Below are positions 26,644-64,000 of a DNA stretch of 64,000 bases, piece after piece (position 1 is the stretch's first letter; each line of letters starts with the position of its first letter). The stretch lies in IMG/VR virus record IMGVR_UViG_3300034166_000560. The stretch is one strand, 5' to 3'. The DNA is from a virus. Position numbers and translations under genes: made by a program. Under the pieces are notes generated by a model, which saw only the letters and a list, made by a program, of their open reading frames with translations, did not search any database and had not been told where the DNA came from.

Positions 26644-28200
26644 TTATAATTTGATTACCAGTCTAAATGTTTCTGACTGCGTATTTGAACGTTCTGTGTT
26701 ATTTATGTTCTGCACGTAAAGGGGATATAAATCTTCTACGAAAATATCGCCTCTACTTTCGATGGCTATAGAAGTCACAATCTGATTATTTGTATTTAAT
26801 ATATTTTCACCATCGATAAAATATTTATCACCGACATAATGAACTGTCGAACCGTTAGACCAGACGACAGTTGCTCTAGCTTTGCTGTTTGCTCCAATAA
26901 TTACGTCTGCATTACTGAAAGTATATGCTGGAGTACAGGTAGATATTTGGATCTGACTGAACGTATTTGAGCTATATCTAGAACCTTTAGATTGATTGTT
27001 TGCGATCAACGAGTAAGGATTCTTTATCAAACCAATTTTGTTGTAAACAACATTCGAAGAAATAGTATTAGACTCAGTATTAGCAAAAGTAAAAGAGATA
27101 GAAATCCCTTGCATGCCTAATTCTGTTGCTGGATCTCTTCCATGACCACCAGGAGGAGGAACGATCGGATAAACCGTGGCCCCGGAACCATAAGAAGAAT
27201 TACTTACAACAACTGCATTAGCCCAAGTAATCGAAGAGCCTTTATCAAGAACAACAACGCCAGAAATAGAATTGGTAACAGTGTTTACTGTAGTGTAAGC
27301 CGTAGGGTTATTACCAGAAGCAGTGTCGCTCGTAAATAAAATTCTAGGAGAAATTTTATACAGAGAAGCTCCTGCGGTAAGAGCAGTAGTGTTAGCTGCA
27401 GAATCAAGAATTACAGTTCTAACGGGACCGTTTACTGTATAGCCAGTAATGTTAAAAATCTGGTATGCATTATTAGAAGAACTGTATAGATAAATGCTGT
27501 TATTTACATAATGACCTGGACTGATAGATGCATTAGATTCAATAACGAGAGCTGTTGAATTGGTGATGCCTTGTAAAGTCCCATTATGGTAAGTTTCGTA
27601 ACCTGCACCAACGTTAGAAACAACCACAGTTTCGATTCCTGAATACGTTAAAGACGCAGCTTGGATTGTGGTGTTTGGATATACAGGAGCGTAGTGGGTT
27701 GTAGAGAACCTATCAAAATCTTCTGTAGAAACAGAAGTCAAATAACGCCATTTATAACCATCTTCTGTTGTTTCGAATGTAGTTGATTGAGTTGGTGTTC
27801 CAATCGAAGAAGGGTTTTTAATAGAAGCTGCACCGTTAGCGTTATCTATGCACTTATACACATGATAAGCCCCGCCGATAGCTGTAGGCGGAGCAATAAC
27901 ATAAAACATACTATTGGCCATATCTTTAGTATTGTCGTATCTATCGTAAACGGTGTTTGATGTCCAAACATATTTTTTAACAATAGATGAAAAATTATTA
28001 GCTAATAATCTTTTTCCAAAATGCATTTGCCAATCGTTTTCAAAATACACATCATAATCTGTATTAGCTAAAGTTGGTGTATCTCCTGGCCATGGTTCTG
28101 CGCCAGCAGCAAATGCATAATAATGAGAAGTATTTGATGAAATATTATCAACAATTTCGTCAAAAATAGATTTTCTGAATGATGATGTAAGTTTACCCAT
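26644..28200 (-). CDS. gp8: Baseplate wedge subunit
   Basis: WTSNTVYDRYD, VYKCIDN, DGYKWRYL, PPGGHG, C-terminal RSNTQSETFRLVI. Confidence 0.85.
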   Translation of the reverse strand: MGKLTSSFRKSIFDEIVDNISSNTSHYYAFAAGAEPWPGDTPTLANTDYDVYFENDWQMHFGKRLLANNFSSIVKKYVWTSNTVYDRYDNTKDMANSMFYVIAPPTAIGGAYHVYKCIDNANGAASIKNPSSIGTPTQSTTFETTEDGYKWRYLTSVSTEDFDRFSTTHYAPVYPNTTIQAASLTYSGIETVVVSNVGAGYETYHNGTLQGITNSTALVIESNASISPGHYVNNSIYLYSSSNNAYQIFNITGYTVNGPVRTVILDSAANTTALTAGASLYKISPRILFTSDTASGNNPTAYTTVNTVTNSISGVVVLDKGSSITWANAVVVSNSSYGSGATVYPIVPPPGGHGRDPATELGMQGISISFTFANTESNTISSNVVYNKIGLIKNPYSLIANNQSKGSRYSSNTFSQIQISTCTPAYTFSNADVIIGANSKARATVVWSNGSTVHYVGDKYFIDGENILNTNNQIVTSIAIESRGDIFVEDLYPLYVQNINNTERSNTQSETFRLVIKL

Positions 28201-29990
28201 TATTTAACGTCCGTTAGGTATGAACCATACATATTTGTTCCATCGCTTATAAACATTATAATATCTCTAGCGTTAGCATCGGTAGTTAACACTGGAGCCA
28301 CTCCAGCCGTCCATTTGAACACAGAATTCCATGTCAATGATTTGTTTCCAGTACCATCTTGGATGACATGAAGTATATAAGTTCCAATCTTAAGATTGGT
28401 TGGCGCCGCCATGGCTCTGTTCCCGCCAAGAGTTACAGTGGCTACTTGCCCCGAAGATGTATCCCAATTAATAGTAGATGCATCTGTTAGGGTTTGAGAG
28501 AGAACATTGGCTTGGGCGACACTAACTGTTCCCTTAAAAATAGTATTGGCGTTGAAATTAGATACACCATTGCAATTAACCACACCAGTAAAAGTGGAAT
28601 TACCAGTAACATTTAAATTACCAGCAACATTAGCTGTGTTAGAAAGGATAGCAGCCCCAACTACCGAAATAGTATTACTAAAATATGTTGCTTTGGTAAA
28701 TGAAGCGTTTGATGTAAAAGAAACGTTTCCATTAAATGTAGCAGTGTTATTGAACGCCGCCGTTCCAACAATGTTAGCAGAAGCTGTGTTTTCTATCAAT
28801 ACGTTTGCAGCGAAAGAAGTTATGTTTGATATATAAACTGGGCCAAGGGTGTATAAATTAGTGTTTGTGACAACGTTGGCGGCAAAAACAACATTTCCAT
28901 TAAATGTAGCAGAATTGCTCCAAGTATAAGTTGCGTTTGTATTAACGCCAGGAACAGTAGACCAATAAACTGTAGAACCATTAGAAGTAAGTAGCTGACC
29001 TGATGTGCCTACGCTACCATTCGCTTCAAGCGTGATAGTGCTTGGAATTTTGAATATCGAAGAGTTTACTGTAACATTTCCGACAGTAACCGAAACTGCA
29101 TTAACAGTGTTTGCTTGGATATCTTTATTAAAGATATGAGTGTTCGACCAAACAAAATAACCAGCAGTGTTAACAGAGGCAACGCCTGGAGAAGACCAAT
29201 AAACCTTTGAACTTCCATCAGAAGTTAGATACTGCCCTGCAGTACCAGTACTACCATTGGCTTCAACGGGTAATGCGCTTCCAAACGAGAACTGGGAACT
29301 GTTGACAACGAGTTTACCGCCAACCTGAAGTATAGCAGCATTAGCTGTTCCTGAAGTGAACACGCCAGTGCTATTAGCAACTGTGCTAGTTCCAACAGTA
29401 TGGGAAGCAGCGTTTACTGTCCCTGTATGATAAGCACCAGTAGAATTAGCAACGAAATTAGAGCCAACAGTGTGCGATGCAGAATTGATCGTTCCTGTAT
29501 GGTAGATACCAGTGCTATTGCCAACAAGACTAGAACCGACTGTATGAGAAGCTGCATTAATTACTCCTGTGTGATAAACGCCTGAAGCATTACCAACAAG
29601 GTCTGAACCTACAGTAAAAGATGAGGCATTAGCCGAACCGTTTACAGTAAGAACTGTGGAATTTACGAATAGATACTGGGCTACGTTTAATAGACCACTG
29701 ATATTTACGTTTGCTGCAGCGTTAACAAGGGAAGAATTAACGCTGAAGTTCGTAATAGCAATTCTACTATTATTAGCTGTGAACGTGGCGGTAGAGTTAC
29801 CGAAATAATAACCAACTGCATTAGATACAGAAGCATTGACAGTAGAATTACCGACTGTAACCATACCAGTCATAGTGTATGTGGTATATATTTCAGTAAA
29901 ATTATTATTGATCTTGATCATACCGTTTCGAACGGTATCACCAGTTCCATCGTTTGGCGCTGAACCTACGTTAACAACCTGTTGTACCAA
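28200..29990 (-). CDS. Baseplate-anchored fibre with gp9/gp10-like N-terminus (TTG start)
   Basis: VNVGSAPNDGTGDTVRNGMIKINNNF is the gp9/gp10 N-terminal motif; ASHTVG repeats; C-terminal domain shared with 12736..14982. Confidence 0.8.
   Translation of the reverse strand: MVQQVVNVGSAPNDGTGDTVRNGMIKINNNFTEIYTTYTMTGMVTVGNSTVNASVSNAVGYYFGNSTATFTANNSRIAITNFSVNSSLVNAAANVNISGLLNVAQYLFVNSTVLTVNGSANASSFTVGSDLVGNASGVYHTGVINAASHTVGSSLVGNSTGIYHTGTINSASHTVGSNFVANSTGAYHTGTVNAASHTVGTSTVANSTGVFTSGTANAAILQVGGKLVVNSSQFSFGSALPVEANGSTGTAGQYLTSDGSSKVYWSSPGVASVNTAGYFVWSNTHIFNKDIQANTVNAVSVTVGNVTVNSSIFKIPSTITLEANGSVGTSGQLLTSNGSTVYWSTVPGVNTNATYTWSNSATFNGNVVFAANVVTNTNLYTLGPVYISNITSFAANVLIENTASANIVGTAAFNNTATFNGNVSFTSNASFTKATYFSNTISVVGAAILSNTANVAGNLNVTGNSTFTGVVNCNGVSNFNANTIFKGTVSVAQANVLSQTLTDASTINWDTSSGQVATVTLGGNRAMAAPTNLKIGTYILHVIQDGTGNKSLTWNSVFKWTAGVAPVLTTDANARDIIMFISDGTNMYGSYLTDVK
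29370..29620 (-). repeat. Coding repeat of about 21 aa (ASHTVGSxxVxNSTGxYHTG, about 4 copies)
   Basis: Visible in the translation. Confidence 0.75.
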
Positions 29991-49714: not shown

Positions 49715-49791
49715 TGGCGGTCCCGGAAGGATTCGAACCCTCGACCTTGGGAGTAGAAATCCCCTGCTCTATCCAGCTGAGCTACGGAACC
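49715..49791 (-). tRNA. tRNA-Arg(TCT)
   Basis: GGTTCCG/CGGGACC acceptor stem, D-loop AGCTGGATA, anticodon loop TT-TCT-AC, GGTTCGAATCC T-arm, encoded CCA. Confidence 0.92.
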
Positions 49792-49800
49792 ATTATTAGT

Positions 49801-49829
49801 ATTATAACCTAGCAGAATTGAAAAGGCAA
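49801..49829 (-). promoter_or_regulatory. Sigma70-type promoter for tRNA-Arg
   Basis: TTGCCT-17 nt-TATAAT. Confidence 0.7.
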
Positions 49830-50133
49830 GTTGTTTCTGTTTCTAGGGACAACTTGCGAACCCCAATGGATCATGCAGCTAGTGCATAAGCTCCAAATGA
49901 TGCATCATTATCGTTTGCATCTACGTTTCGCCTTTGGTCTCCTTACGACCTTACTGAATCCTGTCGAACCTGAATCGCCCCCATCAAAGATACACCGATT
50001 ATCATATCCCATCGGCTAGCACGATATAAGACCACACAAACGACCTCGGTGGCTGATGTATCTATGGTGGAGGCGGTGGGAACTGCCCCCACGTCCAAGA
50101 AACCTATGTTTCGTCTCTCAACGACCTCGGCAA
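49824..50133 (-). ncRNA. ssrA: Two-piece (circularly permuted) tmRNA, alphaproteobacterial type; tag ANDNDASFGAYALAA
   Basis: Acceptor piece ends GACGTGGGGGCAGTTCCCACCGCCTCCACCA (50065); spacer; coding piece starts GGGGGCGATTCAGGTTCGAC (49982), giving a G3:U70 Ala stem; tag frame 49918..49871; 3' hairpin GCAAGTTGT..ACAACTTGC; outer ends approximate. Confidence 0.93.
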
Positions 50134-50136
50134 ACT

Positions 50137-51702
50137 TTATTTATAAATGTTATCTCTAAGGTATTCGTAGTGATTGGGAAGAGTTTTAATGTATTGTTTC
50201 AACGCTGCTTGATGATTAAGCCAACTATATTTGATATCATGTAACTCATTAGCTAATTTTGGGTTTCGTTTCATATCGATATTATGATCCATCTTAGTAA
50301 CAAAACTGTAATTACCTGCCGCCAGAACTCTATGATAACTAAAGTTGCCTTCTTTCATTTTCAATTTTTCTGGATCAGTTGATTGGTTTTGATCATAAAG
50401 ATCTCTAAACAATTTACTAAAATAATCCCCTTCATGGTTATGATTCATAGCATTGGTTCTATGCTTCCAATAAGGAGAATCTTCTCTTTGAGAGAGAAAA
50501 TATTGCGCTGTTACCCAATCTTTGGCTTCTGAGGCTTCTTTAATTACGTAATGGTTATAATATTCTCTATCAAAGTTTTTTACATGACAATCCGTATTAA
50601 GGAGGATACGAGCAATATTCTCAATCATAGATTGAGTCAAAAATAACCCTGTAGATCTCAGAGGTCCAATGAACGCACAAGAAAGCCCAACTGCAATAAC
50701 ATTTTTATACCAAGGAGCCTTTCTAACTCCTGGAGTGAATTTCATAGAACGAAATTCTAAACCGTCCGCCCTTGAACCATATCTTTTTCTTATACTTTCA
50801 CGTAGTTCCTCTTTAGCCGATTCTTCGTTGGTATGATTACTGCTATAAACATAGCCAGAACCAATTCTATCCCAAATTGGAATATTCCACTCCCATCCAC
50901 TATCTAACGCTACACAATCTGTGAAACTAACCATTTCTTCTTTTTTACATTCGTAAGGAATATTGGTCGCAATCGCTCTATCGTTTACAAGAACTTCTGA
51001 AAAATCTATTAATCCTATTTTCAACCCTTGTTCTAATAGAATAGATCTAAACCCAGAACAGTCAATATAAAGATCTGCAGTTAGTGGTCCATTCTCATTA
51101 GTCTCTAAACATGTGATACCATTGTCATCAGTCCGAATAGCATAAATGTCATCGATGATATGTTTAACACCGTTCGGAATAGCGACAAGGTCTTTTAACA
51201 TCAATCCAAATTTATAAGCGTCGAAATGATACGCTTTTTCTATATTAGGATTCCATTTCATTGGTCCTGGTTTGTCAGTATATTTGTTTTGAAGAACCAT
51301 ATGATAGTTGTCATCAAAAAATTCAGGAAAATCAAAAGGCTGGAATAAATCTGGATATTGATGACAAAGGTTATAGAATAATTTAATATCTCTCATAGGG
51401 ACTGGAGGCGTAATCCCCTTAGTCAAATCATAAAAACTTTTACCCTTCTGATAAAAGTCTGTTAGCCTAATGGTTGTTTTATAAACAGCGTCACACTTTG
51501 GCATCCAAATTTGTTCTGGGATACCAAATGGTTTCATAAACCTATTGATGTTTACTAAACTTGATTCTCCAACGCCAATAATTGGAACGTTTGTGGACTC
51601 TATCAGAGTAATGTTAACATTAGGTACATTTTTAGACAAAAGGGCAGCAGTCATCCAACCAGATGATCCGCCGCCCACAATCATAATACTTTTAACTTTC
51701 AT
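50137..51702 (-). CDS. Flavin-dependent tryptophan-halogenase-family protein (divergent active site)
   Basis: GGGSSG, GVGES, AVYK, YHFDA, DCSGF, WEWNIP; FIGPLRSTG in place of FxEPLESTG. Confidence 0.88.
   Translation of the reverse strand: MKVKSIMIVGGGSSGWMTAALLSKNVPNVNITLIESTNVPIIGVGESSLVNINRFMKPFGIPEQIWMPKCDAVYKTTIRLTDFYQKGKSFYDLTKGITPPVPMRDIKLFYNLCHQYPDLFQPFDFPEFFDDNYHMVLQNKYTDKPGPMKWNPNIEKAYHFDAYKFGLMLKDLVAIPNGVKHIIDDIYAIRTDDNGITCLETNENGPLTADLYIDCSGFRSILLEQGLKIGLIDFSEVLVNDRAIATNIPYECKKEEMVSFTDCVALDSGWEWNIPIWDRIGSGYVYSSNHTNEESAKEELRESIRKRYGSRADGLEFRSMKFTPGVRKAPWYKNVIAVGLSCAFIGPLRSTGLFLTQSMIENIARILLNTDCHVKNFDREYYNHYVIKEASEAKDWVTAQYFLSQREDSPYWKHRTNAMNHNHEGDYFSKLFRDLYDQNQSTDPEKLKMKEGNFSYHRVLAAGNYSFVTKMDHNIDMKRNPKLANELHDIKYSWLNHQAALKQYIKTLPNHYEYLRDNIYK
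50138..50145 (-). promoter_or_regulatory. Late promoter TATAAATA directly upstream of tmRNA
   Basis: Exact consensus overlapping the halogenase stop. Confidence 0.7.
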
Positions 51703-56280: not shown

Positions 56281-56429
56281 CCTTGACACTTAACGCCGAA
56301 TTTAGCTTCGACACCCATTACTTTACCATGAAGGGTGCCAATATGACAAGCCTTCGGTTCAATCTCTACATGTTGTTCTTGGCAAACACCACTAACGCAC
56401 ATGAATACAATCGCTGCAACTAACTTCAT
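56277..56429 (-). CDS. Small four-Cys hypothetical protein (50 aa)
   Basis: Manual translation MKLVAAIVFMCVSGVCQEQHVEIEPKACHIGTLHGKVMGVEAKFGVKCQG; AGGAG RBS. Confidence 0.6.
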   Translation of the reverse strand: MKLVAAIVFMCVSGVCQEQHVEIEPKACHIGTLHGKVMGVEAKFGVKCQG

Positions 56430-56953
56430 AATAAATCTCCTAATACACGGAACTTGTAAGCAATACTTATCCTCATAGATTTACAATGAACCGTGGGTTC
56501 GAGTGGACAATGCGGCATTTTAGAATCAAACAATACTGCCGAATTGCTTTTTGGAAAGATGTTTTCTATAATCTTTCCGCCATATTCCATAAGAATTAAA
56601 TGCCCACCGTATTCTGGCTTCCAGTTCTTATGGTAATAATACACCAAAGTATAATACTCGCCCTCTGCATTTTCTAACACATCAACATGAGGATGACCAC
56701 ATTGACCATGAGTGTTACCATTAGCGTATATCTTAATAGTTTCTATTTGTTTGTTTAAAAACTTTTGTATTTTTGATTTGAATAGATTTTCTATTATTTC
56801 TGAAGGCAGGGTTTTATCCCAATGGTAAGTAGGCTCTGGGATCTCAGGCACTGATGAGCCCACCAATTCCCAATTATATTTTTTGAATTCTTCGTCGAGA
56901 AGAACCATTTCTTCTTGTGAAAAGAATTCCTCATCGACGAAGATGTTTCGCAT
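56426..56953 (-). CDS. 2OG-Fe(II) oxygenase
   Basis: GHPHVD, WKPEYGG, FDSKMPHC, RISIAYK. Confidence 0.88.
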   Translation of the reverse strand: MRNIFVDEEFFSQEEMVLLDEEFKKYNWELVGSSVPEIPEPTYHWDKTLPSEIIENLFKSKIQKFLNKQIETIKIYANGNTHGQCGHPHVDVLENAEGEYYTLVYYYHKNWKPEYGGHLILMEYGGKIIENIFPKSNSAVLFDSKMPHCPLEPTVHCKSMRISIAYKFRVLGDLL

Positions 56954-57549
56954 TAGACTTGAAACTTAAACGTTCCTGTAATACTTGTTCTATATGTATC
57001 ATTCGCAAAACAAGGTCTAACGCCATGTTGCATTTCACAAGGAAATAAGATAAAATTATTTTCCCAATCTTCATTAACAGGAATAATATATTCCTTCGGA
57101 CGCCCCAAAACATCTGTATAATATAACGAGAAATTAGAAGTCATTTCTTCTGTTGGTTTGACAAAAGAAGGAGGAGCCTTAATACCTAAATTCATCCAAA
57201 TAATGAACGAAAAGATACCATCATGTTTATGTGGGAGATTACATTCATGTCTATCGAGAAAATTAGCCATCAAAGTGTCCAAAACCAATGGCGCTCCATT
57301 CGTTAGGTAATTGATTTCTTTCTCGTAGCCAAACGTGTTAAGATAAGCGGAAACGTATGGCAGCAATAACTTTTCTGCATGATGCTTTGTTCTTTCGAGA
57401 TAGTAATCTTTTTGGATTACTCTTCTTCCAGTAGATCTTAGTTCTTCTTTTACATCCGGTAATTCTAAAATTTCATTCTTAATCGGAGCTAGATCTCCAT
57501 CAGAAAACTCTGACTGAATGAATCCGTAATTAGGAAACGTATTAACAAC
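56953..57549 (-). CDS. Putative 2OG-Fe(II) oxygenase; start uncertain (ORF track extends to 57561)
   Basis: NLPHKHDGIFSFIIW, FPCEMQHGV, RTSITG. Confidence 0.7.
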   Translation of the reverse strand, partial: VVNTFPNYGFIQSEFSDGDLAPIKNEILELPDVKEELRSTGRRVIQKDYYLERTKHHAEKLLLPYVSAYLNTFGYEKEINYLTNGAPLVLDTLMANFLDRHECNLPHKHDGIFSFIIWMNLGIKAPPSFVKPTEEMTSNFSLYYTDVLGRPKEYIIPVNEDWENNFILFPCEMQHGVRPCFANDTYRTSITGTFKFQV

Positions 57550-57563
57550 ATATTCTTGCATAA

Positions 57564-57764: not shown

Positions 57765-57840
57765 TGGTGCTGCCGGAGAGATTCGAACTCCCGACCTGAT
57801 GATTACTAATCAACTGCTCTACCAACTGAGCTACGGCAGC
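57765..57840 (-). tRNA. tRNA-Thr(AGT)
   Basis: GCTGCCG/CGGCAGC acceptor stem (G1-C72, C2-G71), anticodon loop TT-AGT-AA, GTTCGAATC T-loop, encoded CCA. Confidence 0.9.
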
Positions 57841-58418
57841 ATTAACACGTCGTCGCTTTTGACCGTCATATCAATTTTATTAAAAAACGCAGTAAAAGTC
57901 AATCTTGAATTTTCATTTTCTCCGAAACCACACATAGCACTATGATTAAATTTAGATTTATACAAGACTAATCTATTATAGATGTTTTCAATATACTCTA
58001 CTTTATTATCGTCTTTAAATATCATCGTTCCGCTATTCAAAGGAGGATTTTTATTAAGATATACCACTCCCGCATATATACATCTAGCGTCTGTGTGTAT
58101 CCAAGAATTCTCAAAAATACAATCTTTATCTAATCTATGGAAGTAAAAAGTCCCTTCCCAATTGTAATTATATGAGAATTTATCATATGCTCCTAAGAAA
58201 CAACCATTAAAAATGTCATGTACCAGAAGATCAGTTTTTTCTTTATTTTCTAAAGAAGTTTTGTGTAAAGGGTATGTTCTTTTACCTTTCCAATATGTTC
58301 TTCTTTCATCATTAAATTTCTGAGTATCATTCTGAAAAAATTTTAAAGTGTTCGCCCACTTAACAATCTCATCAGGATAAAGAAAGACATTATCAATCAC
58401 ATATATGTCTTTTAGCAT
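57831..58418 (-). CDS. 2OG-Fe(II) oxygenase-like protein (DUF6445-like)
   Basis: VIDNVF, WKGKRT, WIHTD, AGVVYL, NRLVLY..FNHSA, SRLT. Confidence 0.8.
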   Translation of the reverse strand: MLKDIYVIDNVFLYPDEIVKWANTLKFFQNDTQKFNDERRTYWKGKRTYPLHKTSLENKEKTDLLVHDIFNGCFLGAYDKFSYNYNWEGTFYFHRLDKDCIFENSWIHTDARCIYAGVVYLNKNPPLNSGTMIFKDDNKVEYIENIYNRLVLYKSKFNHSAMCGFGENENSRLTFTAFFNKIDMTVKSDDVLMLP

Positions 58419-58830
58419 CTATCAACCTTAATACATTTTCAATGTCGTCTTGATCAAATTTCGTAATACGTATCTCGTATTTATCTGGCTCTTCAAATAT
58501 CTTGTTGGTGTCTTCGTATCTACCTTCTTTGATAGTATCCATCCAGATAGTTATGTCTGGTTGGAAGAAACTTCTATACAGATTTCTTGGACAAACAAAA
58601 TCACAAATAGCAATAATATCATTCTTACAACAAATCTCAGCATTCTGGGTCATACGACACAACTGACGAAATCTACCGATGTCTGAGAAATCCCAATCAT
58701 CGTAGAATTCTCTCATCTCATCGCCATTGTATAAAGCGACTAATTCGTTTTTATCGTTAAGGACATCAAACAATTTGTTAGCAAATGTGGTCTTCCCGCT
58801 TCCAGGAAGTCCAGTCACAAGTATTTTCAT
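58393..58830 (-). CDS. P-loop kinase, adenylylsulfate-kinase (CysC)-like
   Basis: GLPGSGKT, DWDFSDIGRFRQ, DFVCP, EDTNKIFEEP. Confidence 0.82.
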   Translation of the reverse strand: MKILVTGLPGSGKTTFANKLFDVLNDKNELVALYNGDEMREFYDDWDFSDIGRFRQLCRMTQNAEICCKNDIIAICDFVCPRNLYRSFFQPDITIWMDTIKEGRYEDTNKIFEEPDKYEIRITKFDQDDIENVLRLIDAKRHICD

Positions 58831-60434
58831 CAGTCTGTACCGTGGATATGTTCTTTTAGATAATCATACATTGTAGGACAATCTTTGACTATTTCCTTCC
58901 ACTCAGCCTTTTTCTTATCTAGGTTATCAGCAGCTAATTTATATTTTTCTTTCCACTCTTCTTTGCATATATCATTATACGCATACAAAGAATTGTTATC
59001 AGTTGGAAAATAATTCATACCAGAAGAAATAAATGGTATACCGCCCAAACCAGTAAAACCATAATTTTCCATTCTAGCGTCTGCAGCCCTAGTAAAACCA
59101 CTTACTTCGCTTGTGTCTACCTTCTTTGTTATTGATCCAAAGTCTCTTTTACCGATATCTCTCCAATATGGAGTATCGTCTCTGTGAGACAAAGCGTAGT
59201 GTAATGCAACGAAATCTGCAAAAGCCTTGAAGTATCTTCTACAAGCATAATTATAAACGTCAATGTCCCACTGGCTCACATAACCTTCTGAATCTCTACC
59301 AAGAATACGAATCATTCTCATCAAAAATTCATGAATGCTAAGAAGTCCATTACTCTCAAGCGGCTCAATGAATCCCGCAGACAATCCAATAGCTGCTACG
59401 TTCTTGACCCAAATGCGCTCGTGGATACCAACACGTGATTTGATATTCTTAAATTTAATTCCTTGGTTATTAAAATCCATCTCGTCATCAAAATGACCAG
59501 TGCTACGGAGATATTGTTTAAACTCTTCTAGAGCATCTTCATCACTGATGTATTTGTCTGAATAAACATATCCTGTTCCCAAACGATTCCACAATGGGAT
59601 TGTCCACACCCAACCATTATTAATAGCGTGGCAGTTGGTATATGTAATCATTTCCTTACGCTTATCAACATAAGGAATCTGAGCAGCCCAAGCAGAATTG
59701 TTTGGTAGAATATCGCTCATAGAAATGAACGGTTCGTTTAGAGCTCCAGCTAAAAGAATAGATTTGAAACCAGTGCAATCAATGAACAAATCGGCGGTGA
59801 CTTTTTCGCCATTATCTAGCTGAAGAAAGTTGATACCGTTCTCATCATCAAAATCAACCATCTTTACTTCAGCTAGTATATTCTTAACACCACGTGGAAT
59901 AGCGTATTCTGTTCTTAACCAATTAGCAAACTTGACAGCATTAAAATGATAAGCTGTGTCTTTTCTGAAATTGAAGTTTGGTAATACACCTTCTGAGTTT
60001 TCAAAAATTTTATTTTCATTAACCAACGCCATGATTGGACACATACAATCTGCATAATCACTATTAGGCGTTTCTGGGTAAAGGAACTTTTTAAAATACC
60101 AATCATTTAATACAGCAACATTACCATCAGTATTGGTAGAACCAAACGGATAATGAAACGCTCCAGCGCCTTTTTTATAAAAGTCCTCGAATCTAATAGA
60201 AAGTTTATACGTTGCATCTGTAATTTTCATGAAATCTTTGTCTTCGATCTCAAGAAGTTTTAACCAAGAATTAATAAAACCTAATGTTGACTCTCCAACA
60301 CCAACAGTTGGAATATTTGGCGATTCAATTAGAGTAATATTTTTATTAGGAAAAACTTTGATCAAAGTGGCTGCAGCCATCCATCCAGCTGAACCACCAC
60401 CAACGATGACAATCTTATCAATTTTCTTAGTCAT
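58830..60434 (-). CDS. Flavin-dependent tryptophan-halogenase-family protein
   Basis: GGGSAG, GVGEST, ATYK (catalytic Lys), DCTGF, WVWTIP, FIEPLESNG, RDDTPYW. Confidence 0.92.
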   Translation of the reverse strand: MTKKIDKIVIVGGGSAGWMAAATLIKVFPNKNITLIESPNIPTVGVGESTLGFINSWLKLLEIEDKDFMKITDATYKLSIRFEDFYKKGAGAFHYPFGSTNTDGNVAVLNDWYFKKFLYPETPNSDYADCMCPIMALVNENKIFENSEGVLPNFNFRKDTAYHFNAVKFANWLRTEYAIPRGVKNILAEVKMVDFDDENGINFLQLDNGEKVTADLFIDCTGFKSILLAGALNEPFISMSDILPNNSAWAAQIPYVDKRKEMITYTNCHAINNGWVWTIPLWNRLGTGYVYSDKYISDEDALEEFKQYLRSTGHFDDEMDFNNQGIKFKNIKSRVGIHERIWVKNVAAIGLSAGFIEPLESNGLLSIHEFLMRMIRILGRDSEGYVSQWDIDVYNYACRRYFKAFADFVALHYALSHRDDTPYWRDIGKRDFGSITKKVDTSEVSGFTRAADARMENYGFTGLGGIPFISSGMNYFPTDNNSLYAYNDICKEEWKEKYKLAADNLDKKKAEWKEIVKDCPTMYDYLKEHIHGTD

Positions 60435-61634
60435 TTAATTTCCTTTATAATCTATAGAACTTTTACGGCTACGTCTAGTTTCTTCAACGCCATTAGTGTC
60501 GGAATCGTATTCTTCATTAACTGATTTTAAAATTGAAACTTTATAATACTGTTCGTTTGGTTTGGATACAGGAACGTTCTCGCCACAAGTTCGGGCGCAA
60601 ACTTTCAATTTTTCTTCTCCCCAATATTCTTTATGCCAATCAATAGATTGCCACTCATAGCCATCCAAAACATCTTTTAAGGATTTAACCCTCAAGTCAT
60701 TTCCAAAATTTTTCTCAATTCTTTCAATAAACTTTAACTTTTGATTATCTATTTCTCTAATCATATTAATAAATCTAGAGTCACGATCATCGTTATTTGG
60801 TAATTTCTTTACTGGAAATTTAGCGCCAACTCCAATATAACAACATGGGAACATTTTCTGCCAAGCATCAATATATACTTCTTTGTTCTGGAGAACAGGA
60901 CAATTAATAACAGATCTATCGATGTAGTCATTATATCTATCACTGAACTCAAAATCAAGATATTTCATGTCTTGATCGGAGGAAGAAGGTTCTAGATAAT
61001 GCGTAACATTTCCTTGTTTATCTACTACTTTCATTTTCTTGGTGTTAAAAAACCTTAGAGTTTTTCTGGCGACAAATCTAGCAAATCCTAATTCTTTGGC
61101 TATTTTCTCACATTCTTGTTCTTGATGTTCGTTATGTTTAAACGATAGAAACACCCATACAGCGTTTCCGCCAGCTTCTATGAAAGATTTAGCATTACGT
61201 ATAATTGTTTCGTATTTTGTTCCGATACGATGTAGATGGTGAGTGTCCTCTAGTCCATCAATTGCGAAATAAACGTCGCTAACCTTTGGCATAACTTTGG
61301 CTAATTGAGCCCACCACTCTGGTTTACGGGCACCACCATTTGTATGGATTCTTATATTAATCTTTGGATTGACAAATGAAGTATATTCGATCATATCAAT
61401 TAGATCGTCGTTTAACATAGGGTCTCCATAATTTCCAGAGAACCTAAGAAATTCCATCTGTTTTAAAACGTCTTCATTGAGAATTCTTCTATAATCTTCA
61501 AATTTCCAAGAAATAATAGGCAAGCCAGGATTTACAATTTCACCATTAATATTTCTGGCGCACATTGGACATGCAGCCTGACAATTACTAGTAATCTCTA
61601 AATGCGCTGCTCGAAGTTGATCAAATCTAAACAT
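60435..61634 (-). CDS. Radical SAM protein with SPASM/twitch-like C-terminus
   Basis: CQAACPMC, GNYGDP, HTNG, FPCC and C-terminal CARTC. Confidence 0.9.
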   Translation of the reverse strand: MFRFDQLRAAHLEITSNCQAACPMCARNINGEIVNPGLPIISWKFEDYRRILNEDVLKQMEFLRFSGNYGDPMLNDDLIDMIEYTSFVNPKINIRIHTNGGARKPEWWAQLAKVMPKVSDVYFAIDGLEDTHHLHRIGTKYETIIRNAKSFIEAGGNAVWVFLSFKHNEHQEQECEKIAKELGFARFVARKTLRFFNTKKMKVVDKQGNVTHYLEPSSSDQDMKYLDFEFSDRYNDYIDRSVINCPVLQNKEVYIDAWQKMFPCCYIGVGAKFPVKKLPNNDDRDSRFINMIREIDNQKLKFIERIEKNFGNDLRVKSLKDVLDGYEWQSIDWHKEYWGEEKLKVCARTCGENVPVSKPNEQYYKVSILKSVNEEYDSDTNGVEETRRSRKSSIDYKGN

Positions 61635-61636
61635 TT

Positions 61637-62374
61637 TTATTCACCGCTGAATGGACACCCTCGTTTTTCATTTCTTTTTAAGATGGTTTTGATTTTTCTC
61701 CATCCATAGAAACTATATGCTGGGGAGTTGACCTTTTTCTGATATTCGCCCTTAGTTAATAGATGAACTTTATGTTTGAGTTTCTTTTCACTAAGTGGTA
61801 TGACATGCACCATAGGCGTACCTATAGGAATTATATACTGATCTTGTTTTCTAGGAACCATAATAAAGAAATTGCCAGAAGAAGCCAAATTAAAATTAAC
61901 AACGCCTGGTAAAACTTTTATATCATATTCACCAAGAGCCCATTCCGCTCCAACAAATAGAAAATTTATGTTTTCTTTACAATTAAACAACCATGGAGAT
62001 CTCATCTTTAAATTGAAATATTTTGAAAATGCATTTCCGTATTGTTCAGGGTTGTGAGAAACTGGATCAGGTGGTGAAGAGAAAAAACACTGAAAGTTGT
62101 TTACGTCAGTCTTAAACCCCATATCACACCATGATTCAATCACAACGCCTTTCTTATAGAATTCTAAAAATCCATAACAAGACCTTAAATTTCTATGTCT
62201 TGATTCTAGATTATCAAAATCTAAATCGACCGGAGTTTCTGGAATTGGAATATTGTTAAACCATTCAGGTTTAGTTAATGAAGCATTCACAATGGGAGTA
62301 TATTTGTTGACATTCCCATCGCTTGTGAAACAATCTAAATGAATTACTGGAGTTTTGTGAAAAAATGTAAACAT
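61637..62374 (-). CDS. Hypothetical beta-rich protein
   Basis: KPEWF, RSCYGF, KMRSPW, GTPMVHVIP, C-terminal GCPF. Confidence 0.65.
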   Translation of the reverse strand: MFTFFHKTPVIHLDCFTSDGNVNKYTPIVNASLTKPEWFNNIPIPETPVDLDFDNLESRHRNLRSCYGFLEFYKKGVVIESWCDMGFKTDVNNFQCFFSSPPDPVSHNPEQYGNAFSKYFNLKMRSPWLFNCKENINFLFVGAEWALGEYDIKVLPGVVNFNLASSGNFFIMVPRKQDQYIIPIGTPMVHVIPLSEKKLKHKVHLLTKGEYQKKVNSPAYSFYGWRKIKTILKRNEKRGCPFSGE

Positions 62375-63189
62375 TAGTAAGCACTTATCTTCACTGTTGG
62401 TTTGGTTTCATTATCTTTTTGTTTACCGAAATAAATTTCAGCAGGTTTATGATCTCTTAATAATTTAAACTTATTGATACCTAGTTCCATGAATGGTTCT
62501 TTTTCCCAGGTATGATTAACCCCATCATAATTGTAGTCATACTTAGGGTCTTTTTGTGAACATTCGTATCGAATACCTTTGTCCCCTCTATTAAACTTAG
62601 AGAAAAACCCATAACACAATTTAGCTGGACATGTAAATGCGCATCCAGTAACTAGAAACAATCTAAGTCGCTGTCTAACTTCCTTATCTAAGGAAGAAAG
62701 CAATTCTAAATTAGTATTAAATGCTGCTGGTAGAGGAACAACAGTATCATATAATTCCAGAGATTTGTGTAGAGTGTAAACGTCTGAAATTTCTTTAATG
62801 ACTGATGCTTCTAGTTTATAGAGAGGAAAATCTCTTCGTATCCATTTGGCCAAATTATTTTTAACACAAATGATTGAATTGCCTTCACGATGATATTTTT
62901 CAAGAAACGGAATGGCTTCTTTATAAAGGTCTTCTGTAACCAACGAGGAAGTCAGCGGAATGCGATAACCAATTCCTTGATTATACATCCACTGTATATC
63001 TTGTTCTACCAATTCTGGTGAATTTTCTAGATAAGGTCTGCCACCGTATATTCTGCACGGAAAATCTGAGAATGCAAATACTGAATCGATTCTATTCAAT
63101 TCAATATCTGGAAATCCTTTTGAAAGGAAATCACTTATATGTTGATTTGGTAATTTAGCTCGACCAGATACGGTATACGTATAATCCAT
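62374..63189 (-). CDS. Hypothetical protein, possibly U32-family Fe-S/TIM-barrel
   Basis: YGGR, LEASVIK, LVTGCAFTCP..C, GINKFKL resemble the U32 Cys pattern; tentative. Confidence 0.5.
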   Translation of the reverse strand: MDYTYTVSGRAKLPNQHISDFLSKGFPDIELNRIDSVFAFSDFPCRIYGGRPYLENSPELVEQDIQWMYNQGIGYRIPLTSSLVTEDLYKEAIPFLEKYHREGNSIICVKNNLAKWIRRDFPLYKLEASVIKEISDVYTLHKSLELYDTVVPLPAAFNTNLELLSSLDKEVRQRLRLFLVTGCAFTCPAKLCYGFFSKFNRGDKGIRYECSQKDPKYDYNYDGVNHTWEKEPFMELGINKFKLLRDHKPAEIYFGKQKDNETKPTVKISAY

Positions 63190-63213
63190 TCACTGCCTCC
63201 ATTGAATATATCA

Positions 63214-63221
63214 TATTTATT
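63214..63221 (-). promoter_or_regulatory. Late-type promoter AATAAATA upstream of the tailoring-enzyme operon
   Basis: One mismatch to TATAAATA; GGAGG RBS follows. Confidence 0.55.
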
Positions 63222-63405
63222 CCTCGAGGCGCTGGACCATAATATGCGAACTCATTGCTCCACAAAGAGCAATCATTGCACATACGAAGTTAATAGTTGA
63301 TTCTGGTAACACAAGCATGAAAAATGCATTGGTTGTCAGAAAGAATACATTAATACGGAACATCCAACGATGGAACCTTGGATCGTTTAGCAATTCTTCC
63401 TCCAT
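63217..63405 (-). CDS. Small membrane protein
   Basis: Two hydrophobic segments. Confidence 0.6.
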   Translation of the reverse strand: MEEELLNDPRFHRWMFRINVFFLTTNAFFMLVLPESTINFVCAMIALCGAMSSHIMVQRLEE

Positions 63406-63608
63406 TACAGGTCAATATCTTCGAAAAAGTCTTCAAGAAGAGCCTGGAACTTCTCAGTAAAGCCATATGCCTTGTAATCTTTATACAGTTCTTTTAACTC
63501 ATGGACGTCACCAAGCTCACCACGAATGACCGTATAACCACGATCCTGGAGCTCATCAACCAGATCATTATCGTCGAATTCGGTCATACTAACTTCTACA
63601 TAAGCCAT
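63405..63608 (-). CDS. Hypothetical protein
   Basis: AAGGAG RBS; acidic. Confidence 0.65.
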   Translation of the reverse strand: MAYVEVSMTEFDDNDLVDELQDRGYTVIRGELGDVHELKELYKDYKAYGFTEKFQALLEDFFEDIDL

Positions 63609-63636: not shown

Positions 63637-63665
63637 ATCATACTATAGTTTTTGAGAAATTTCAA
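63637..63665 (-). promoter_or_regulatory. Sigma70-type promoter
   Basis: TTGAAA-17 nt-TATGAT. Confidence 0.6.
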
Positions 63666-64000
63666 ATATATTTTTTCCAATCATACTCAACATCTCCATA
63701 ATAAAGATCGTCTTTTTCTCCGTAATCAATTATTAGATGAATACGGTTTTGATCGGAATCGTTTCTACCAGAGTGAGGTATGTTATTATTGAATTCGACG
63801 AGATCTCCAACTTTCATATTCAGAGATTCGTTAACAGAGGGAAACTTAAAAATAACATTTTCGTTTGTAAAAATGGGAATATGAATACGAATTGTGTTTT
63901 CATAATGATACATATAATCTATGTGCTCGGGAATAACGCTATGAGCTTTCATATTATTGAGGGTAATTCTTTTTATCTGTTTATTAGAATAATGACGATT
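63662..64000 (-). CDS. Asp/Asn beta-hydroxylase-like 2OG oxygenase, 3' part (start probably beyond window)
   Basis: IPEHID, RIHIPIFTN, EFNNNIPHSGRN..RIHLIID; frame open to window end. Confidence 0.85.
   Translation of the reverse strand, partial: NRHYSNKQIKRITLNNMKAHSVIPEHIDYMYHYENTIRIHIPIFTNENVIFKFPSVNESLNMKVGDLVEFNNNIPHSGRNDSDQNRIHLIIDYGEKDDLYYGDVEYDWKKYI

What the first reader, a model, noticed from the sequence alone, without database searches (positions are those of the whole stretch)
57831..63221. Late, translationally coupled tailoring-enzyme operon resembling a biosynthetic/modification cluster
Seen: six abutting or overlapping genes behind an AATAAATA late-type promoter: U32-like protein, unknown protein, radical SAM/SPASM, flavin halogenase, CysC-like kinase and a 2OG oxygenase. 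An Asp/Asn-hydroxylase-like gene and two more oxygenases flank it. No flavin reductase or clear precursor peptide is in the window. Known: these families halogenate, hydroxylate or crosslink peptides and small molecules. Inference: late timing suggests post-translational modification of virion proteins, for example the Trp/His/Tyr loops of the adhesin, rather than general metabolism.
Basis: partly seen in the sequence, partly recalled or inferred. Interest (0 to 1): 0.8.

Follow-up and report, generated by a model that had tools for sequence, protein, structure and literature searches.

The report
Late phage halogenase–oxygenase tailoring gene module
An uncultured freshwater T4-like phage carries a tightly packed, late-promoter-headed row of chemical "decorating" enzymes; it matches a module of marine cyanophages that follows glycine-rich fibre-like genes, so these viral halogenases may modify phage proteins, which is untested.

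Summary
Six abutting minus-strand genes lie at 57831-63189. They encode a U32-like Fe-S TIM-barrel protein (shown by fold only), a 245-aa protein, a radical SAM enzyme, a VirX1-type flavin halogenase, a short APS-kinase-like protein and a DUF6445-type 2OG oxygenase. An AATAAATA motif sits 24 nt before the first gene, with the same geometry as before this phage's structural genes. SPASM was not confirmed.

It is not a fixed six-gene pathway. The closest relative lacks the radical SAM gene, and another relative has the halogenase elsewhere.

The 245-aa "unknown" has a dUTPase-like fold, and its family sits next to the halogenase in Syn10, S-CREM1, P-TIM40, S-RIM44 and uncultured phages. In seven cultured cyanomyoviruses a late-promoter motif heads glycine-rich "tail fibre" genes that run without a break into the halogenase(s) and a train of oxygenases. 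This window has the same layout.

The U32-like family recurs beside sulfotransferases and APS kinases, and this genome holds a sulfotransferase elsewhere.

Modification of late Gly-rich phage proteins is therefore the leading reading (about 0.4) but unproven. Small-molecule chemistry is the main rival.

The scan had also noted this layout in another genome.

The parts
63214..63221 (-). AATAAATA, a T4-type late-promoter-like motif 24 nt upstream of the p271 start, followed by a GGAGG Shine-Dalgarno
   Evidence: Conserved with the same spacing in relatives L030 and L043. NATAAATA is the published cyanomyovirus late promoter (PMC2984593).
62374..63189 (-). p271: U32-like TIM-barrel protein with four invariant Cys (C183, C187, C192, C210), a probable Fe-S enzyme
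   Evidence: No Pfam hit. AF2 pLDDT 92. 5d88 U32 peptidase is the top hit: Foldseek E 5e-8; VIA Z 15.9, rmsd 3.6 over 220 residues. Invariant Cys are from a 40-sequence alignment.
61637..62374 (-). p245: phrog_7084 family protein with a dUTPase-like beta-barrel fold; its family recurs next to phage halogenases
   Evidence: phrog_7084, E 6e-19. AF2 pLDDT 86. VIA Z 10.9 to dUTPases. The A2 profile hits the gene after the halogenase in Syn10, S-CREM1, P-TIM40 and S-RIM44, E 1e-15 to 1e-10, and genes in 12 of 31 uncultured halogenase loci.
60435..61634 (-). Radical SAM enzyme with a Cys-containing C-terminal extension (SPASM not confirmed); a cassette absent from the closest relative
   Evidence: PF04055, E 7e-11. 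C18/C22/C25 are 98% conserved and the C-terminal Cys about 40-60%. No PF13186 hit. Absent in L030, present in L043.
58830..60434 (-). Hal1: VirX1-type flavin-dependent halogenase
   Evidence: PF04820, E 6e-108. Best PDB match is VirX1 6QGM, E 8e-111, full length. The GGGSAG, ATYK, WVWTIP and FIEPLES motifs are aligned.
58393..58830 (-). Short APS-kinase (CysC)-like P-loop kinase, 145 aa, with a shortened lid
   Evidence: PF01583, E 1e-10, above cut-off. The PDB matches are led by APS kinases (best 2yvu, 7e-11); the P-loop, NGDEMR (for DGDxxR), FSD...R and FVCP (for FVSP) motifs are aligned. NCBIfam equivalog cut-offs are not reached.
57831..58418 (-). ox195: DUF6445-type 2OG/Fe(II) oxygenase-like protein; the end of its ORF overlaps tRNA-Thr by 10 nt
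   Evidence: DUF6445, E 3e-6, above cut-off; 2OG-FeII_Oxy_3, E 0.0085. H-[TK]-D is conserved in the orthologues, and H159 and R172 are invariant.
58478..58485 (-). GATAAATA motif inside the kinase gene, 59 nt before ox195; a possible internal late promoter
   Evidence: A motif at 56 nt is also present in relative L030.
57765..57840 (-). tRNA-Thr (AGT) directly after the six genes
56426..57561 (-). Two further oxygenase genes on the same strand: ox202 (56953-57561) and ox175 (56426-56953)
   Evidence: phrog_81 2OG oxygenase, E 8e-11; PF13640, E 3e-11.
63217..63608 (-). Two small conserved ORFs upstream: s67 (acidic) and s62 (hydrophobic, probably membrane). s62 precedes p271 in all three relatives.
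63662..64000 (-). Asp/Asn beta-hydroxylase-like gene (200 aa; runs to about 64264, beyond the window). Upstream of it, outside the window, lie a 195-aa acidic protein, a 228-aa protein with 31% Gly and the loop CTGWCGQFCFFAYCC, and a 69-aa Cys-rich protein headed by another late motif.
   Evidence: PF05118, E 4e-11. Upstream ORFs in L005. Late motif 35 nt before zn69.
50137..51702 (-). Hal2: a second, divergent halogenase paralogue in the window
   Evidence: PF04820 / phrog_2928

Best explanation
This is the local version of a late-transcribed 'tailoring' module found widely in aquatic T4-like phages.

Shown:
- A late-promoter-like motif heads a run of abutting genes.
- The halogenase is VirX1-type.
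- The 245-aa protein belongs to a dUTPase-fold family that recurs beside phage halogenases.
- In cultured cyanomyoviruses the halogenase(s) and a train of 2OG/JmjC oxygenases follow late-promoter-headed Gly_rich_2 'tail fibre' genes. No late-promoter motif lies before the halogenase or before nearly all genes behind it.
- In this lineage the module has gained cassettes: a U32-like four-Cys TIM-barrel protein, a radical SAM enzyme and a short APS kinase. Its membership and gene order vary between close relatives.

Inferred: the enzymes decorate a phage-made late product. The most likely targets are the Gly/Tyr-rich fibre-like proteins encoded just upstream. The proposed chemistry has three parts:
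- hydroxylation, by the Asp/Asn hydroxylase, the 2OG oxygenases and possibly the U32-like enzyme;
- halogenation of aromatic side chains, by Hal1 using host-reduced flavin;
- sulfation, with PAPS made by the mini-CysC and used by the sulfotransferase encoded elsewhere in this genome.

I put the module architecture and late co-transcription at about 0.8 and the protein target at about 0.35-0.4.
For: - Gene identities.
- Late motif: its geometry matches that before structural genes, and it is conserved before p271 in L030 and L043.
- Cultured phages: in S-WAM1, Syn10, P-RSM6, S-CREM1, S-RIM44, S-SZBM1 and P-TIM40, Gly_rich_2 proteins (PF21722) sit one or two genes before the halogenase. A NATAAATA motif lies 19-52 nt before a Gly-rich gene or the small gene after it. 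None lies before the halogenase or any annotated oxygenase; the only other motif is before a 73-aa ORF in S-CREM1.
- The p245 family sits next to the halogenase in four of these phages and in 12 of 31 uncultured loci.
- Gly-rich ORFs occur in 12 of 31 halogenase loci, against 7 of 51 and 0 of 32 control loci.
- S-SZBM1 virion mass spectrometry found the proteins encoded just upstream of its module, ORFs 51-54 (PMC9146016).
- A 2OG oxygenase was found in S-SCSM2R virion preparations (PMC12801897).
- VirX1 has a large open active site that takes bulky substrates (PMC8407142).
- PF13640, JmjC and PF05118 are families that hold protein hydroxylases (my knowledge).
- The U32-like family lies next to sulfotransferase-like and APS-kinase-like genes in several phage contexts and is fused to a sulfotransferase in bacteria.
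- The phage's own genome holds a sulfotransferase candidate: PF03567 above cut-off; phrog_3347, E 2.5e-10.
Against: - No experiment shows any modified phage protein.
- The window's 228-aa Gly-rich protein has no significant similarity to the cyanophage Gly_rich_2 proteins. It is not found within 6.5 kb upstream of the enzymes in relative L043.
- Halogenases lie elsewhere in S-B64/S-H35 and S-MbCM6.
- Synteny near tail-fibre genes could merely reflect a recombination-tolerant region.
- As far as I know, flavin halogenases studied so far act on small molecules, carrier-tethered substrates or peptides, not on folded proteins.
- The dUTPase-like fold of p245 hints at a nucleotide ligand.
- The sulfotransferase candidate is of the carbohydrate type, not a tyrosyl-protein sulfotransferase.
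- A sigma-70-like match (10 of 12) lies before s67, so early transcription into the cluster cannot be excluded.
Confidence: 0.4

Rival explanations
1. The genes are a loose island of independent auxiliary genes that act on small molecules or host metabolites. Examples would be hydroxylation, halogenation and sulfation of an aromatic compound, or redox and 2OG management. They sit near fibre genes only because that region tolerates insertions.
For: - Composition and order vary between close relatives: no rSAM in L030, the halogenase moved in L043, no ox195 in L043.
- rSAM and p271 relatives mostly occur without the other genes.
- VirX1 halogenates diverse free aromatics in vitro (PMC8407142).
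- Halogenases and multiple 2OG oxygenases are long-known, sporadically distributed cyanophage accessory genes (PMC3037559, PMC2984593).
- U32-type hydroxylases, halogenases and sulfotransferases all suit aromatic rings (inference).
Against: - The link Gly-rich gene, then halogenase, then oxygenases is conserved across distant phages under one late motif.
- There are no core biosynthetic genes (NRPS, PKS, prenyltransferase) and no transporter in the window.
- Late timing is odd for metabolic takeover genes.
Confidence: 0.3
2. The enzymes remodel a host envelope glycan or lipid late in infection (sulfation, hydroxylation), for example to block superinfection or to aid release.
For: - The sulfotransferase candidate matches a phage family that PHROGs labels galactose-3-O-sulfotransferase.
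- The PF05118 family includes the lipid A hydroxylase LpxO; there is a weak NCBIfam hit.
- In other phages, rSAM relatives sit among DegT aminotransferase fragments, a PP-loop protein and an APS-kinase/cytidylyltransferase-like fusion.
- Bacterial p271 relatives lie beside large sulfotransferase and GT41/TPR proteins.
Against: - There are no glycosyltransferase or sugar-nucleotide genes within the six-gene run.
- This reading does not explain the halogenase or the conserved position behind the Gly-rich genes.
Confidence: 0.1
3. The module is a nucleic-acid or nucleotide modification set. A U32-like enzyme would hydroxylate a pyrimidine C5, as RlhA and TrhP do. A dUTPase-fold protein would bind the nucleotide, and a P-loop kinase and a radical SAM enzyme would process it further.
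For: - The U32 enzymes RlhA and TrhP hydroxylate C5 of cytidine or uridine in RNA (PMC5727448, PMC6599085; listed).
- p245 has a dUTPase-like fold.
- A tRNA gene abuts the cluster.
- Kinase and rSAM enzymes occur in thymidine hypermodification pathways (my knowledge).
- According to earlier unchecked scan notes, this phage hypermodifies thymine with a separate cassette.
Against: - The kinase is specifically APS-kinase-like, with APS-site motifs.
- By eye, I found none of the dUTPase motifs among the p245 invariant residues.
- The p271 Cys spacing differs from the canonical U32 pattern (against PMC6747719).
- The halogenase partnership of p245, and the late promoter, fit poorly with nucleotide-level DNA modification.
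Confidence: 0.08
4. The module is a RiPP-like pathway in which the radical SAM enzyme and the halogenase mature a small ribosomal precursor peptide.
For: rSAM maturase-like weak NCBIfam hits, all far below cut-off. Small ORFs s62 and s67 lie upstream. Peptide-Trp halogenases exist in lanthipeptide clusters (my knowledge).
Against: - The rSAM is absent from the closest relative, which keeps everything else.
- There is no SPASM hit.
- s62 is a hydrophobic, membrane-like protein and s67 an acidic protein. Neither has a leader/core look, and s67 sits before the halogenase rather than before the rSAM in L043.
- rSAM relatives elsewhere are flanked by hydroxylases, not by peptides.
Confidence: 0.04

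Closest known systems
VirX1, the flavin-dependent halogenase of cyanophage Syn10 (PDB 6QGM)
   Same: Hal1 aligns over its full length, E 8e-111. The flavin GxGxxG, the Lys of the ATYK motif, WxWxIP and FxxPxxSxG are all present. Like VirX1, it is viral and has no cognate flavin reductase gene.
   Different: Identity is only about 39-47% to cultured cyanophage enzymes. The host is probably not a cyanobacterium: there is no psbA, and the terminase is nearest Sinorhizobium phiM12-like phages. The natural substrate of VirX1 is itself unknown.
Kyanoviridae neighbourhood of structural gene, Gly_rich_2 'tail fibre/collagen-like' genes, halogenase(s) and a 2OG/JmjC oxygenase train (S-WAM1, Syn9/Syn10, P-RSM6, S-CREM1, S-RIM44, S-SZBM1, P-TIM40)
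   Same: Same strand and same order. A late motif lies at the head and none before the halogenase. A p245-family gene sits beside the halogenase, and several oxygenases follow.
   Different: Here the Gly-rich protein is not detectably homologous. An Asp/Asn hydroxylase and small ORFs intervene, and a second late motif heads the enzyme run. A U32-like protein, a radical SAM enzyme and an APS kinase have been added; the p271 profile (A1) found no relative in the eight cyanophage loci it was run on, and the rSAM and kinase gave no phmmer hit there. The papers I read treat the cyanophage genes as unrelated AMGs.
Peptidase U32 family Fe-S hydroxylases (UbiU/UbiV, TrhP, RlhA) and the Mk0906 structure 5D88
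   Same: TIM-barrel fold closest to 5D88 (Z 15.9). Four invariant cysteines suit a 4Fe-4S cluster. One homologue carries a precomputed PF01136 hit, and JGI names another a PrtC-family protease.
   Different: p271 itself has no PF01136 hit. The Cys spacing is CX3CX4CX17C, against the usual CX6CX15CX3/4C (PMC6747719). At 271 aa it has no extra domains. Its genomic partners are sulfotransferases and APS kinases, or haem genes, not ubi or tRNA genes.
APS kinase CysC
   Same: The P-loop, the DGDxxR-like motif, FSxxxR and (F/I)(V/I)SP-like motifs align with solved APS kinases. In relatives it lies next to sulfotransferases.
   Different: It is only 145 aa, with a shortened lid region. The Ser of the ISP motif is Cys. 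It scores far below the NCBIfam equivalog cut-offs.
Virus-encoded modification of the virus's own collagen-like or fibre proteins in giant viruses
   Same: The concept is the same: a virus brings hydroxylases that decorate Gly-rich structural proteins of its own particle.
   Different: Those are eukaryotic viruses with different enzymes. As far as I know, halogenation or sulfation of phage proteins has never been reported.

Membership tests
Flavin-dependent halogenase (Trp_halogenase PF04820, VirX1 type) | Pfam score above cut-off and full-length alignment to a solved member | tested here: met
   362 bits against a cut-off of 21. VirX1 6QGM, E 8e-111, residues 4-533 against 3-529.
Flavin-dependent halogenase (Trp_halogenase PF04820, VirX1 type) | GxGxxG flavin motif, WxWxIP motif and conserved catalytic Lys | tested here: met
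   GGGSAG, WVWTIP and the Lys of ATYK align with the same residues of VirX1.
Flavin-dependent halogenase (Trp_halogenase PF04820, VirX1 type) | Halogenating activity and substrate | not testable with these tools
   Needs an enzyme assay. No flavin reductase gene is present in the contig.
Radical SAM superfamily | CxxxCxxC cluster motif and PF04055 above cut-off | tested here: met
   C18/C22/C25 are 98% conserved. 43 bits against a cut-off of 29.5.
SPASM/twitch radical SAM maturases | C-terminal SPASM domain (PF13186) with the seven-Cys pattern | tested here: not met
   No PF13186 hit at E up to 10. Only five C-terminal Cys, 38-59% conserved in relatives. A twitch-like single cluster cannot be excluded without a model.
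Peptidase U32 Fe-S hydroxylase family | PF01136 sequence match | tested here: not met
   No hit at E up to 10. The A1 profile finds no U32 chain in the PDB.
Peptidase U32 Fe-S hydroxylase family | U32 TIM-barrel fold | tested here: met
   5d88 is the top hit: Foldseek E 5e-8; VIA Z 15.9, against about 10 for the next barrels.
Peptidase U32 Fe-S hydroxylase family | Four conserved Cys in the CX6CX15CX3/4C arrangement binding 4Fe-4S | tested here: inconclusive
   Four invariant Cys are present, but spaced CX3CX4CX17C (against PMC6747719).
APS kinase (CysC) | PF01583 above cut-off, P-loop and APS-site motifs | tested here: met
   42 bits against a cut-off of 21. The motifs align with 2yvu and 7yq0.
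APS kinase (CysC) | Full-length equivalog score and complete lid | tested here: not met
   NCBIfam 43 bits against cut-offs of 127-244. Only residues 3-98 align, and the protein is 145 aa against about 175-200 aa.
2OG/Fe(II) oxygenase (ox195) | HxD...H iron triad and 2OG-binding Arg | tested here: met
   H-[TK]-D is conserved in three orthologues, and H159 and R172 are invariant. DUF6445 is above cut-off, while PF13640 is below it.
dUTPase / dCTP deaminase superfamily (p245) | Fold | tested here: met
   VIA Z 10.9, rmsd 2.9 over 126 residues. Ten dUTPases score Z at least 8.6, against Z 3-4 for unrelated rows.
dUTPase / dCTP deaminase superfamily (p245) | The five dUTPase sequence motifs | tested here: inconclusive
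   No sequence or profile match to any dUTPase. The invariant residues (P36, C66, W82, D84, H107, K123...) do not look like those motifs by eye.
RiPP biosynthetic cluster | Adjacent precursor peptide conserved with the maturase | tested here: not met
   No candidate was seen. The rSAM is absent in the closest relative, and s62 and s67 are not linked to the rSAM.
Cyanomyovirus Gly_rich_2-halogenase-oxygenase late module | Gly_rich_2 (PF21722) protein upstream of the halogenase | tested here: not met
   The window's 228-aa, 31%-Gly protein gives no PF21722 hit, no hit to a profile of the cyanophage proteins and no composition-corrected BLASTP similarity. It is a positional analogue only.
Cyanomyovirus Gly_rich_2-halogenase-oxygenase late module | Late motif at the head, VirX1-type halogenase, adjacent p245-family gene and downstream oxygenases on one strand | tested here: met

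The most novel reading that the evidence does not exclude
Aquatic T4-like phages use a late operon to post-translationally halogenate, hydroxylate and perhaps sulfate their own glycine- and tyrosine-rich fibre proteins. That would make virion proteins the long-sought natural substrate of VirX1-type viral halogenases. The dUTPase-fold p245 family would be a dedicated halogenase partner, and a U32-like Fe-S enzyme plus a mini-CysC would form a hydroxylate-then-sulfate branch.
Probability: 0.3. Interest if true: 0.85.

Novelty: new variant of a known kind. Interest (0 to 1): 0.62.

Why it matters
Halogenases and multiple 2OG oxygenases have been listed as puzzling cyanophage accessory genes since the first genomes. 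VirX1 is used as a biocatalyst, yet its natural substrate is unknown.

This work shows three things:
- These genes form a conserved late module behind Gly-rich fibre-like genes.
- A dUTPase-fold protein family travels with the halogenase.
- A freshwater lineage has added a U32-like Fe-S enzyme, a radical SAM enzyme and an APS kinase.

Together they turn an open question into a concrete experiment: mass spectrometry of specific proteins in phages that are already in culture. If confirmed, it would be, to my knowledge, the first halogenated or sulfated phage structural protein. It would also add a new layer of host-range chemistry. If not, the module still defines a recurrent viral toolbox for aromatic tailoring.

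Tried and rejected
- Complex prediction of p271 with p245 returned no answer (score 0.01). This is no evidence either way.
- Pfam and NCBIfam gave nothing for p271 and p245, even at E 10.
- Profiles of both families found no PDB sequence.
- PF01136, PF13186 and PF01613 gave no hit in the phage's own 146.6-kb contig. PF13469 gave none either.
- ox195 has no PDB sequence match.
- Early on I read the cluster as a random accessory island, because rSAM and p271 relatives mostly lack the other genes. I revised this after seeing the cyanophage synteny.
- Similarity between the Gly-rich proteins seen with low-complexity filtering switched off was rejected as compositional. It vanished with composition-adjusted BLASTP and with a profile.
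The six C-termini differ.
- The p271 neighbourhoods with haem genes or replication genes gave no usable functional lead.
- The VirX1 primary paper and the Syn9 transcriptome paper are not in the library, so published expression timing of the Syn9 halogenases could not be checked.

Full report
**What the window is.** The window is bases 63406-127405 of a 146.6-kb IMG/VR virus record, about 86% complete. It is a T4-like myovirus with sheath, large terminase, baseplate and tape-measure-like genes. The terminase is closest to Sinorhizobium phages phiM12 and phiN3 (56-57%) and then to cyanophages (49%). No psbA is present. I therefore treat the host as unknown and probably not a cyanobacterium. Earlier notes of this scan call the phage freshwater.

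**Anatomy.** Six minus-strand ORFs abut or overlap:
- p271, 62374-63189
- p245, 61637-62374
- rSAM, 60435-61634
- Hal1, 58830-60434
- kinase, 58393-58830
- ox195, 57831-58418

The junctions are a 1-nt overlap, a 2-nt gap, no gap, a 1-nt overlap and a 26-nt overlap. A tRNA-Thr follows and overlaps the ox195 stop by 10 nt. More same-strand genes then follow, including two oxygenases, ox202 and ox175.

Upstream on the same strand lie s62, s67 and an Asp/Asn beta-hydroxylase-like gene (PF05118). Beyond the window edge lie a 195-aa acidic protein, a 228-aa protein with 31% Gly carrying the loop CTGWCGQFCFFAYCC, and a 69-aa Cys-rich protein. Tight packing is general in this genome, so on its own it is not special.

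**Promoter.** AATAAATA lies at 63214-63221 (-), 24 nt before the p271 ATG, and a GGAGG follows it. The motif is not over-represented overall: 11 found against 8.3 expected. Its placement is not random, however. About 11 of 24 NATAAATA sites lie 24-47 nt upstream of gene starts on the same strand, mostly of structural genes. NATAAATA is the late promoter described for cyanomyoviruses (PMC2984593). The site and its spacing are conserved in two relatives. A second motif heads the upstream block that starts with the Cys-rich and Gly-rich genes. A sigma-70-like match (10 of 12) lies before s67, so early read-through cannot be excluded.

**Gene identities.**
- Hal1 is a VirX1-type flavin halogenase. 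PF04820 scores E 6e-108, and the best solved match is VirX1 6QGM, full length at E 8e-111, with all motifs aligned.
- The kinase is APS-kinase-like. PF01583 is above its cut-off, and solved APS kinases are the best matches. The P-loop and the DGDxxR-like, FSxxxR and ISP-like motifs align. But it is only 145 aa, has a short lid, and scores below the NCBIfam equivalog cut-offs.
- The rSAM has the CxxxCxxC motif and PF04055. SPASM is not supported.
- ox195 is a DUF6445-type protein with a plausible HxD...H...R set.
- p271 has no family hit, but it folds confidently (pLDDT 92). It is closest to the U32 protein Mk0906: Foldseek E 5e-8; VIA Z 15.9, five units above generic TIM barrels. It has four invariant Cys. 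The spacing, CX3CX4CX17C, differs from the CX6CX15CX3/4C reported for U32 proteins (PMC6747719).
- p245 (phrog_7084) folds into a dUTPase-like barrel (Z 10.9; ten dUTPases at Z 8.6 or more), but no dUTPase motifs were recognised.

**Not a fixed pathway.**
- The closest relative (IMGVR_UViG_3300032308_001297) shares the whole neighbourhood at 58-93% protein identity and has p271, p245, Hal, kinase and ox195, but no rSAM.
- A Logan contig has Hal and a 2OG oxygenase placed before s62-p271-p245-rSAM-kinase, and it lacks ox195.
- rSAM relatives in 24 viral contigs almost never have the other genes nearby. Instead they are flanked by two PF05118 hydroxylase-like genes and often occur as several paralogues.
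- p271 relatives (more than 550 proteins, in phages and bacteria) occur in about 21 different viral contexts.

**A sulfation thread.**
- In six of those contexts, p271 lies next to a sulfotransferase-like gene.
- In five of them an APS-kinase-like gene lies nearby. Examples are sulfotransferase-kinase-p271-JmjC in a 174-kb phage, and p271-sulfotransferase-kinase in two others.
- The Atlas shows the p271 fold fused to a sulfotransferase domain in Pseudomonadota.
- One bacterial homologue sits beside a 1012-aa sulfotransferase.
- This phage has no sulfotransferase in the window. It does have a candidate about 95 kb away: PF03567 above cut-off; phrog_3347, E 2.5e-10; HIPKTGG and RNPxxR motifs.

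I infer that the mini-CysC supplies PAPS and that p271 may create the hydroxyl to be sulfated. This step is inferred only.

**The link to cyanophages.** Looking at where cultured phages keep their VirX1-type genes changed my reading. Seven phages were examined: S-WAM1, Syn10 (Syn9-like), P-RSM6, S-CREM1, S-RIM44, S-SZBM1 and P-TIM40. In all seven the order is:
1. a large structural gene;
2. two to four proteins of about 255-290 aa, Gly-rich; PF21722 was confirmed for the three tested, and the rest share their N- and C-termini; they are annotated as tail fibre, collagen-like or PE-PGRS;
3. a gene of 135-221 aa;
4. one or two halogenases;
5. a train of 2OG and JmjC oxygenases.

In every one, a NATAAATA motif lies 19-52 nt before a Gly-rich gene or the small gene after it. 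None lies before the halogenase or any annotated oxygenase; the only other motif is before a 73-aa ORF in S-CREM1.

A profile of the p245 family hits the gene right after the halogenase in Syn10, S-CREM1, P-TIM40 and S-RIM44, E 1e-15 to 1e-10. In S-CREM1 that gene is annotated 'triphosphate nucleotidohydrolase'.

Among 31 uncultured loci with Hal1 relatives, 12 carry a p245-family gene. In ten of them it lies one or two genes from a halogenase. Twelve carry a Gly-rich ORF of 190-400 aa, against 7 of 51 and 0 of 32 control loci. Near-duplicate loci inflate these counts.

S-SZBM1 virion mass spectrometry found the four proteins encoded just upstream of its module. It did not find the Gly-rich proteins, the halogenase or the oxygenases (PMC9146016). 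Exceptions to the layout are S-B64/S-H35, S-MbCM6 and, in part, Sf-CH11.

**Interpretation.** The finding is a lineage-specific, enlarged version of a conserved late module.

Four points count against it:
- The window's Gly-rich protein is only a positional analogue.
- That protein is missing beside the enzymes in one relative.
- As far as I know, flavin halogenases studied so far act on small molecules or peptides.
- Fibre regions are recombination hot spots.

The main rival is small-molecule chemistry by independent accessory genes. Envelope-glycan, nucleic-acid and RiPP readings are less likely, for the reasons listed under the rivals.

**Literature.** The papers I could read list cyanophage halogenases and 2OG oxygenases as separate accessory genes. 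They suggest roles such as antibiotic protection, DNA repair or 2OG management (PMC2984593, PMC3037559, PMC9964418). I found no description of the module, of the p245 partnership, or of the link between U32-like proteins and sulfotransferases. The library is incomplete, so this absence is weak evidence.

**Earlier scan notes.** Another first-stage note of this scan reports the same layout in another genome. That is not independent support.

Noticed in passing
window 49715-50157 (-): ARAGORN calls a tmRNA, marked with an asterisk, with tag peptide ANDNDASFGAYALAA. It overlaps a tRNA-Arg(TCT) gene directly downstream of the second halogenase. A phage-borne tmRNA could hint at the host group.
   Followed up: no
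window 50137-51702 (-): A second halogenase paralogue (Hal2, 521 aa). It is as distant from Hal1 as the cyanophage enzymes are, and it has no p245 or oxygenase neighbour. Its first 59 bases are 88% identical to the start of a Syn9/Syn10 halogenase gene.
   Followed up: partly
G000:C1 about 28027-28587 (L045:1240-1800, -), outside the window: A 186-aa sulfotransferase candidate (PF03567; phrog_3347 'galactose-3-O-sulfotransferase') lies next to a DUF2828/DUF7788 gene, which is probably the Ro60-like gene of earlier scan notes. It is a possible consumer of PAPS from the mini-CysC.
   Followed up: partly
L055-L063, L092, L099 (marine viral contigs): p271-family genes are embedded among haem synthesis genes: coproporphyrinogen oxidase, p271, ALA dehydratase, porphobilinogen deaminase. 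This association for the U32-like family is unexplained.
   Followed up: no
L006-L029 (viral contigs): Relatives of the radical SAM enzyme are flanked on both sides by Asp/Asn hydroxylase-like genes. In several contigs they occur as three or four tandem paralogues. One locus has an APS-kinase-like domain fused to a cytidylyltransferase-like domain.
   Followed up: partly
L005:1939-2148 (-), just outside the window; also L040-L042, L050, L051, L065, L137: A 69-aa Cys-rich protein (phrog_13558), headed by a late motif, starts the Gly-rich gene block here. It recurs within a few kb of p271 or halogenase genes in other phages.
   Followed up: no
window 58478-58485 (-): A GATAAATA motif lies inside the kinase gene, 59 nt before ox195, and is conserved in the closest relative. 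It may be an internal late promoter.
   Followed up: no
L046, L047 (bacterial contigs): Bacterial p271 homologues sit beside very large sulfotransferase-DUF4915 proteins or TPR-GT41 proteins. Some p271 homologues are themselves fused to TPR repeats (446 aa).
   Followed up: no
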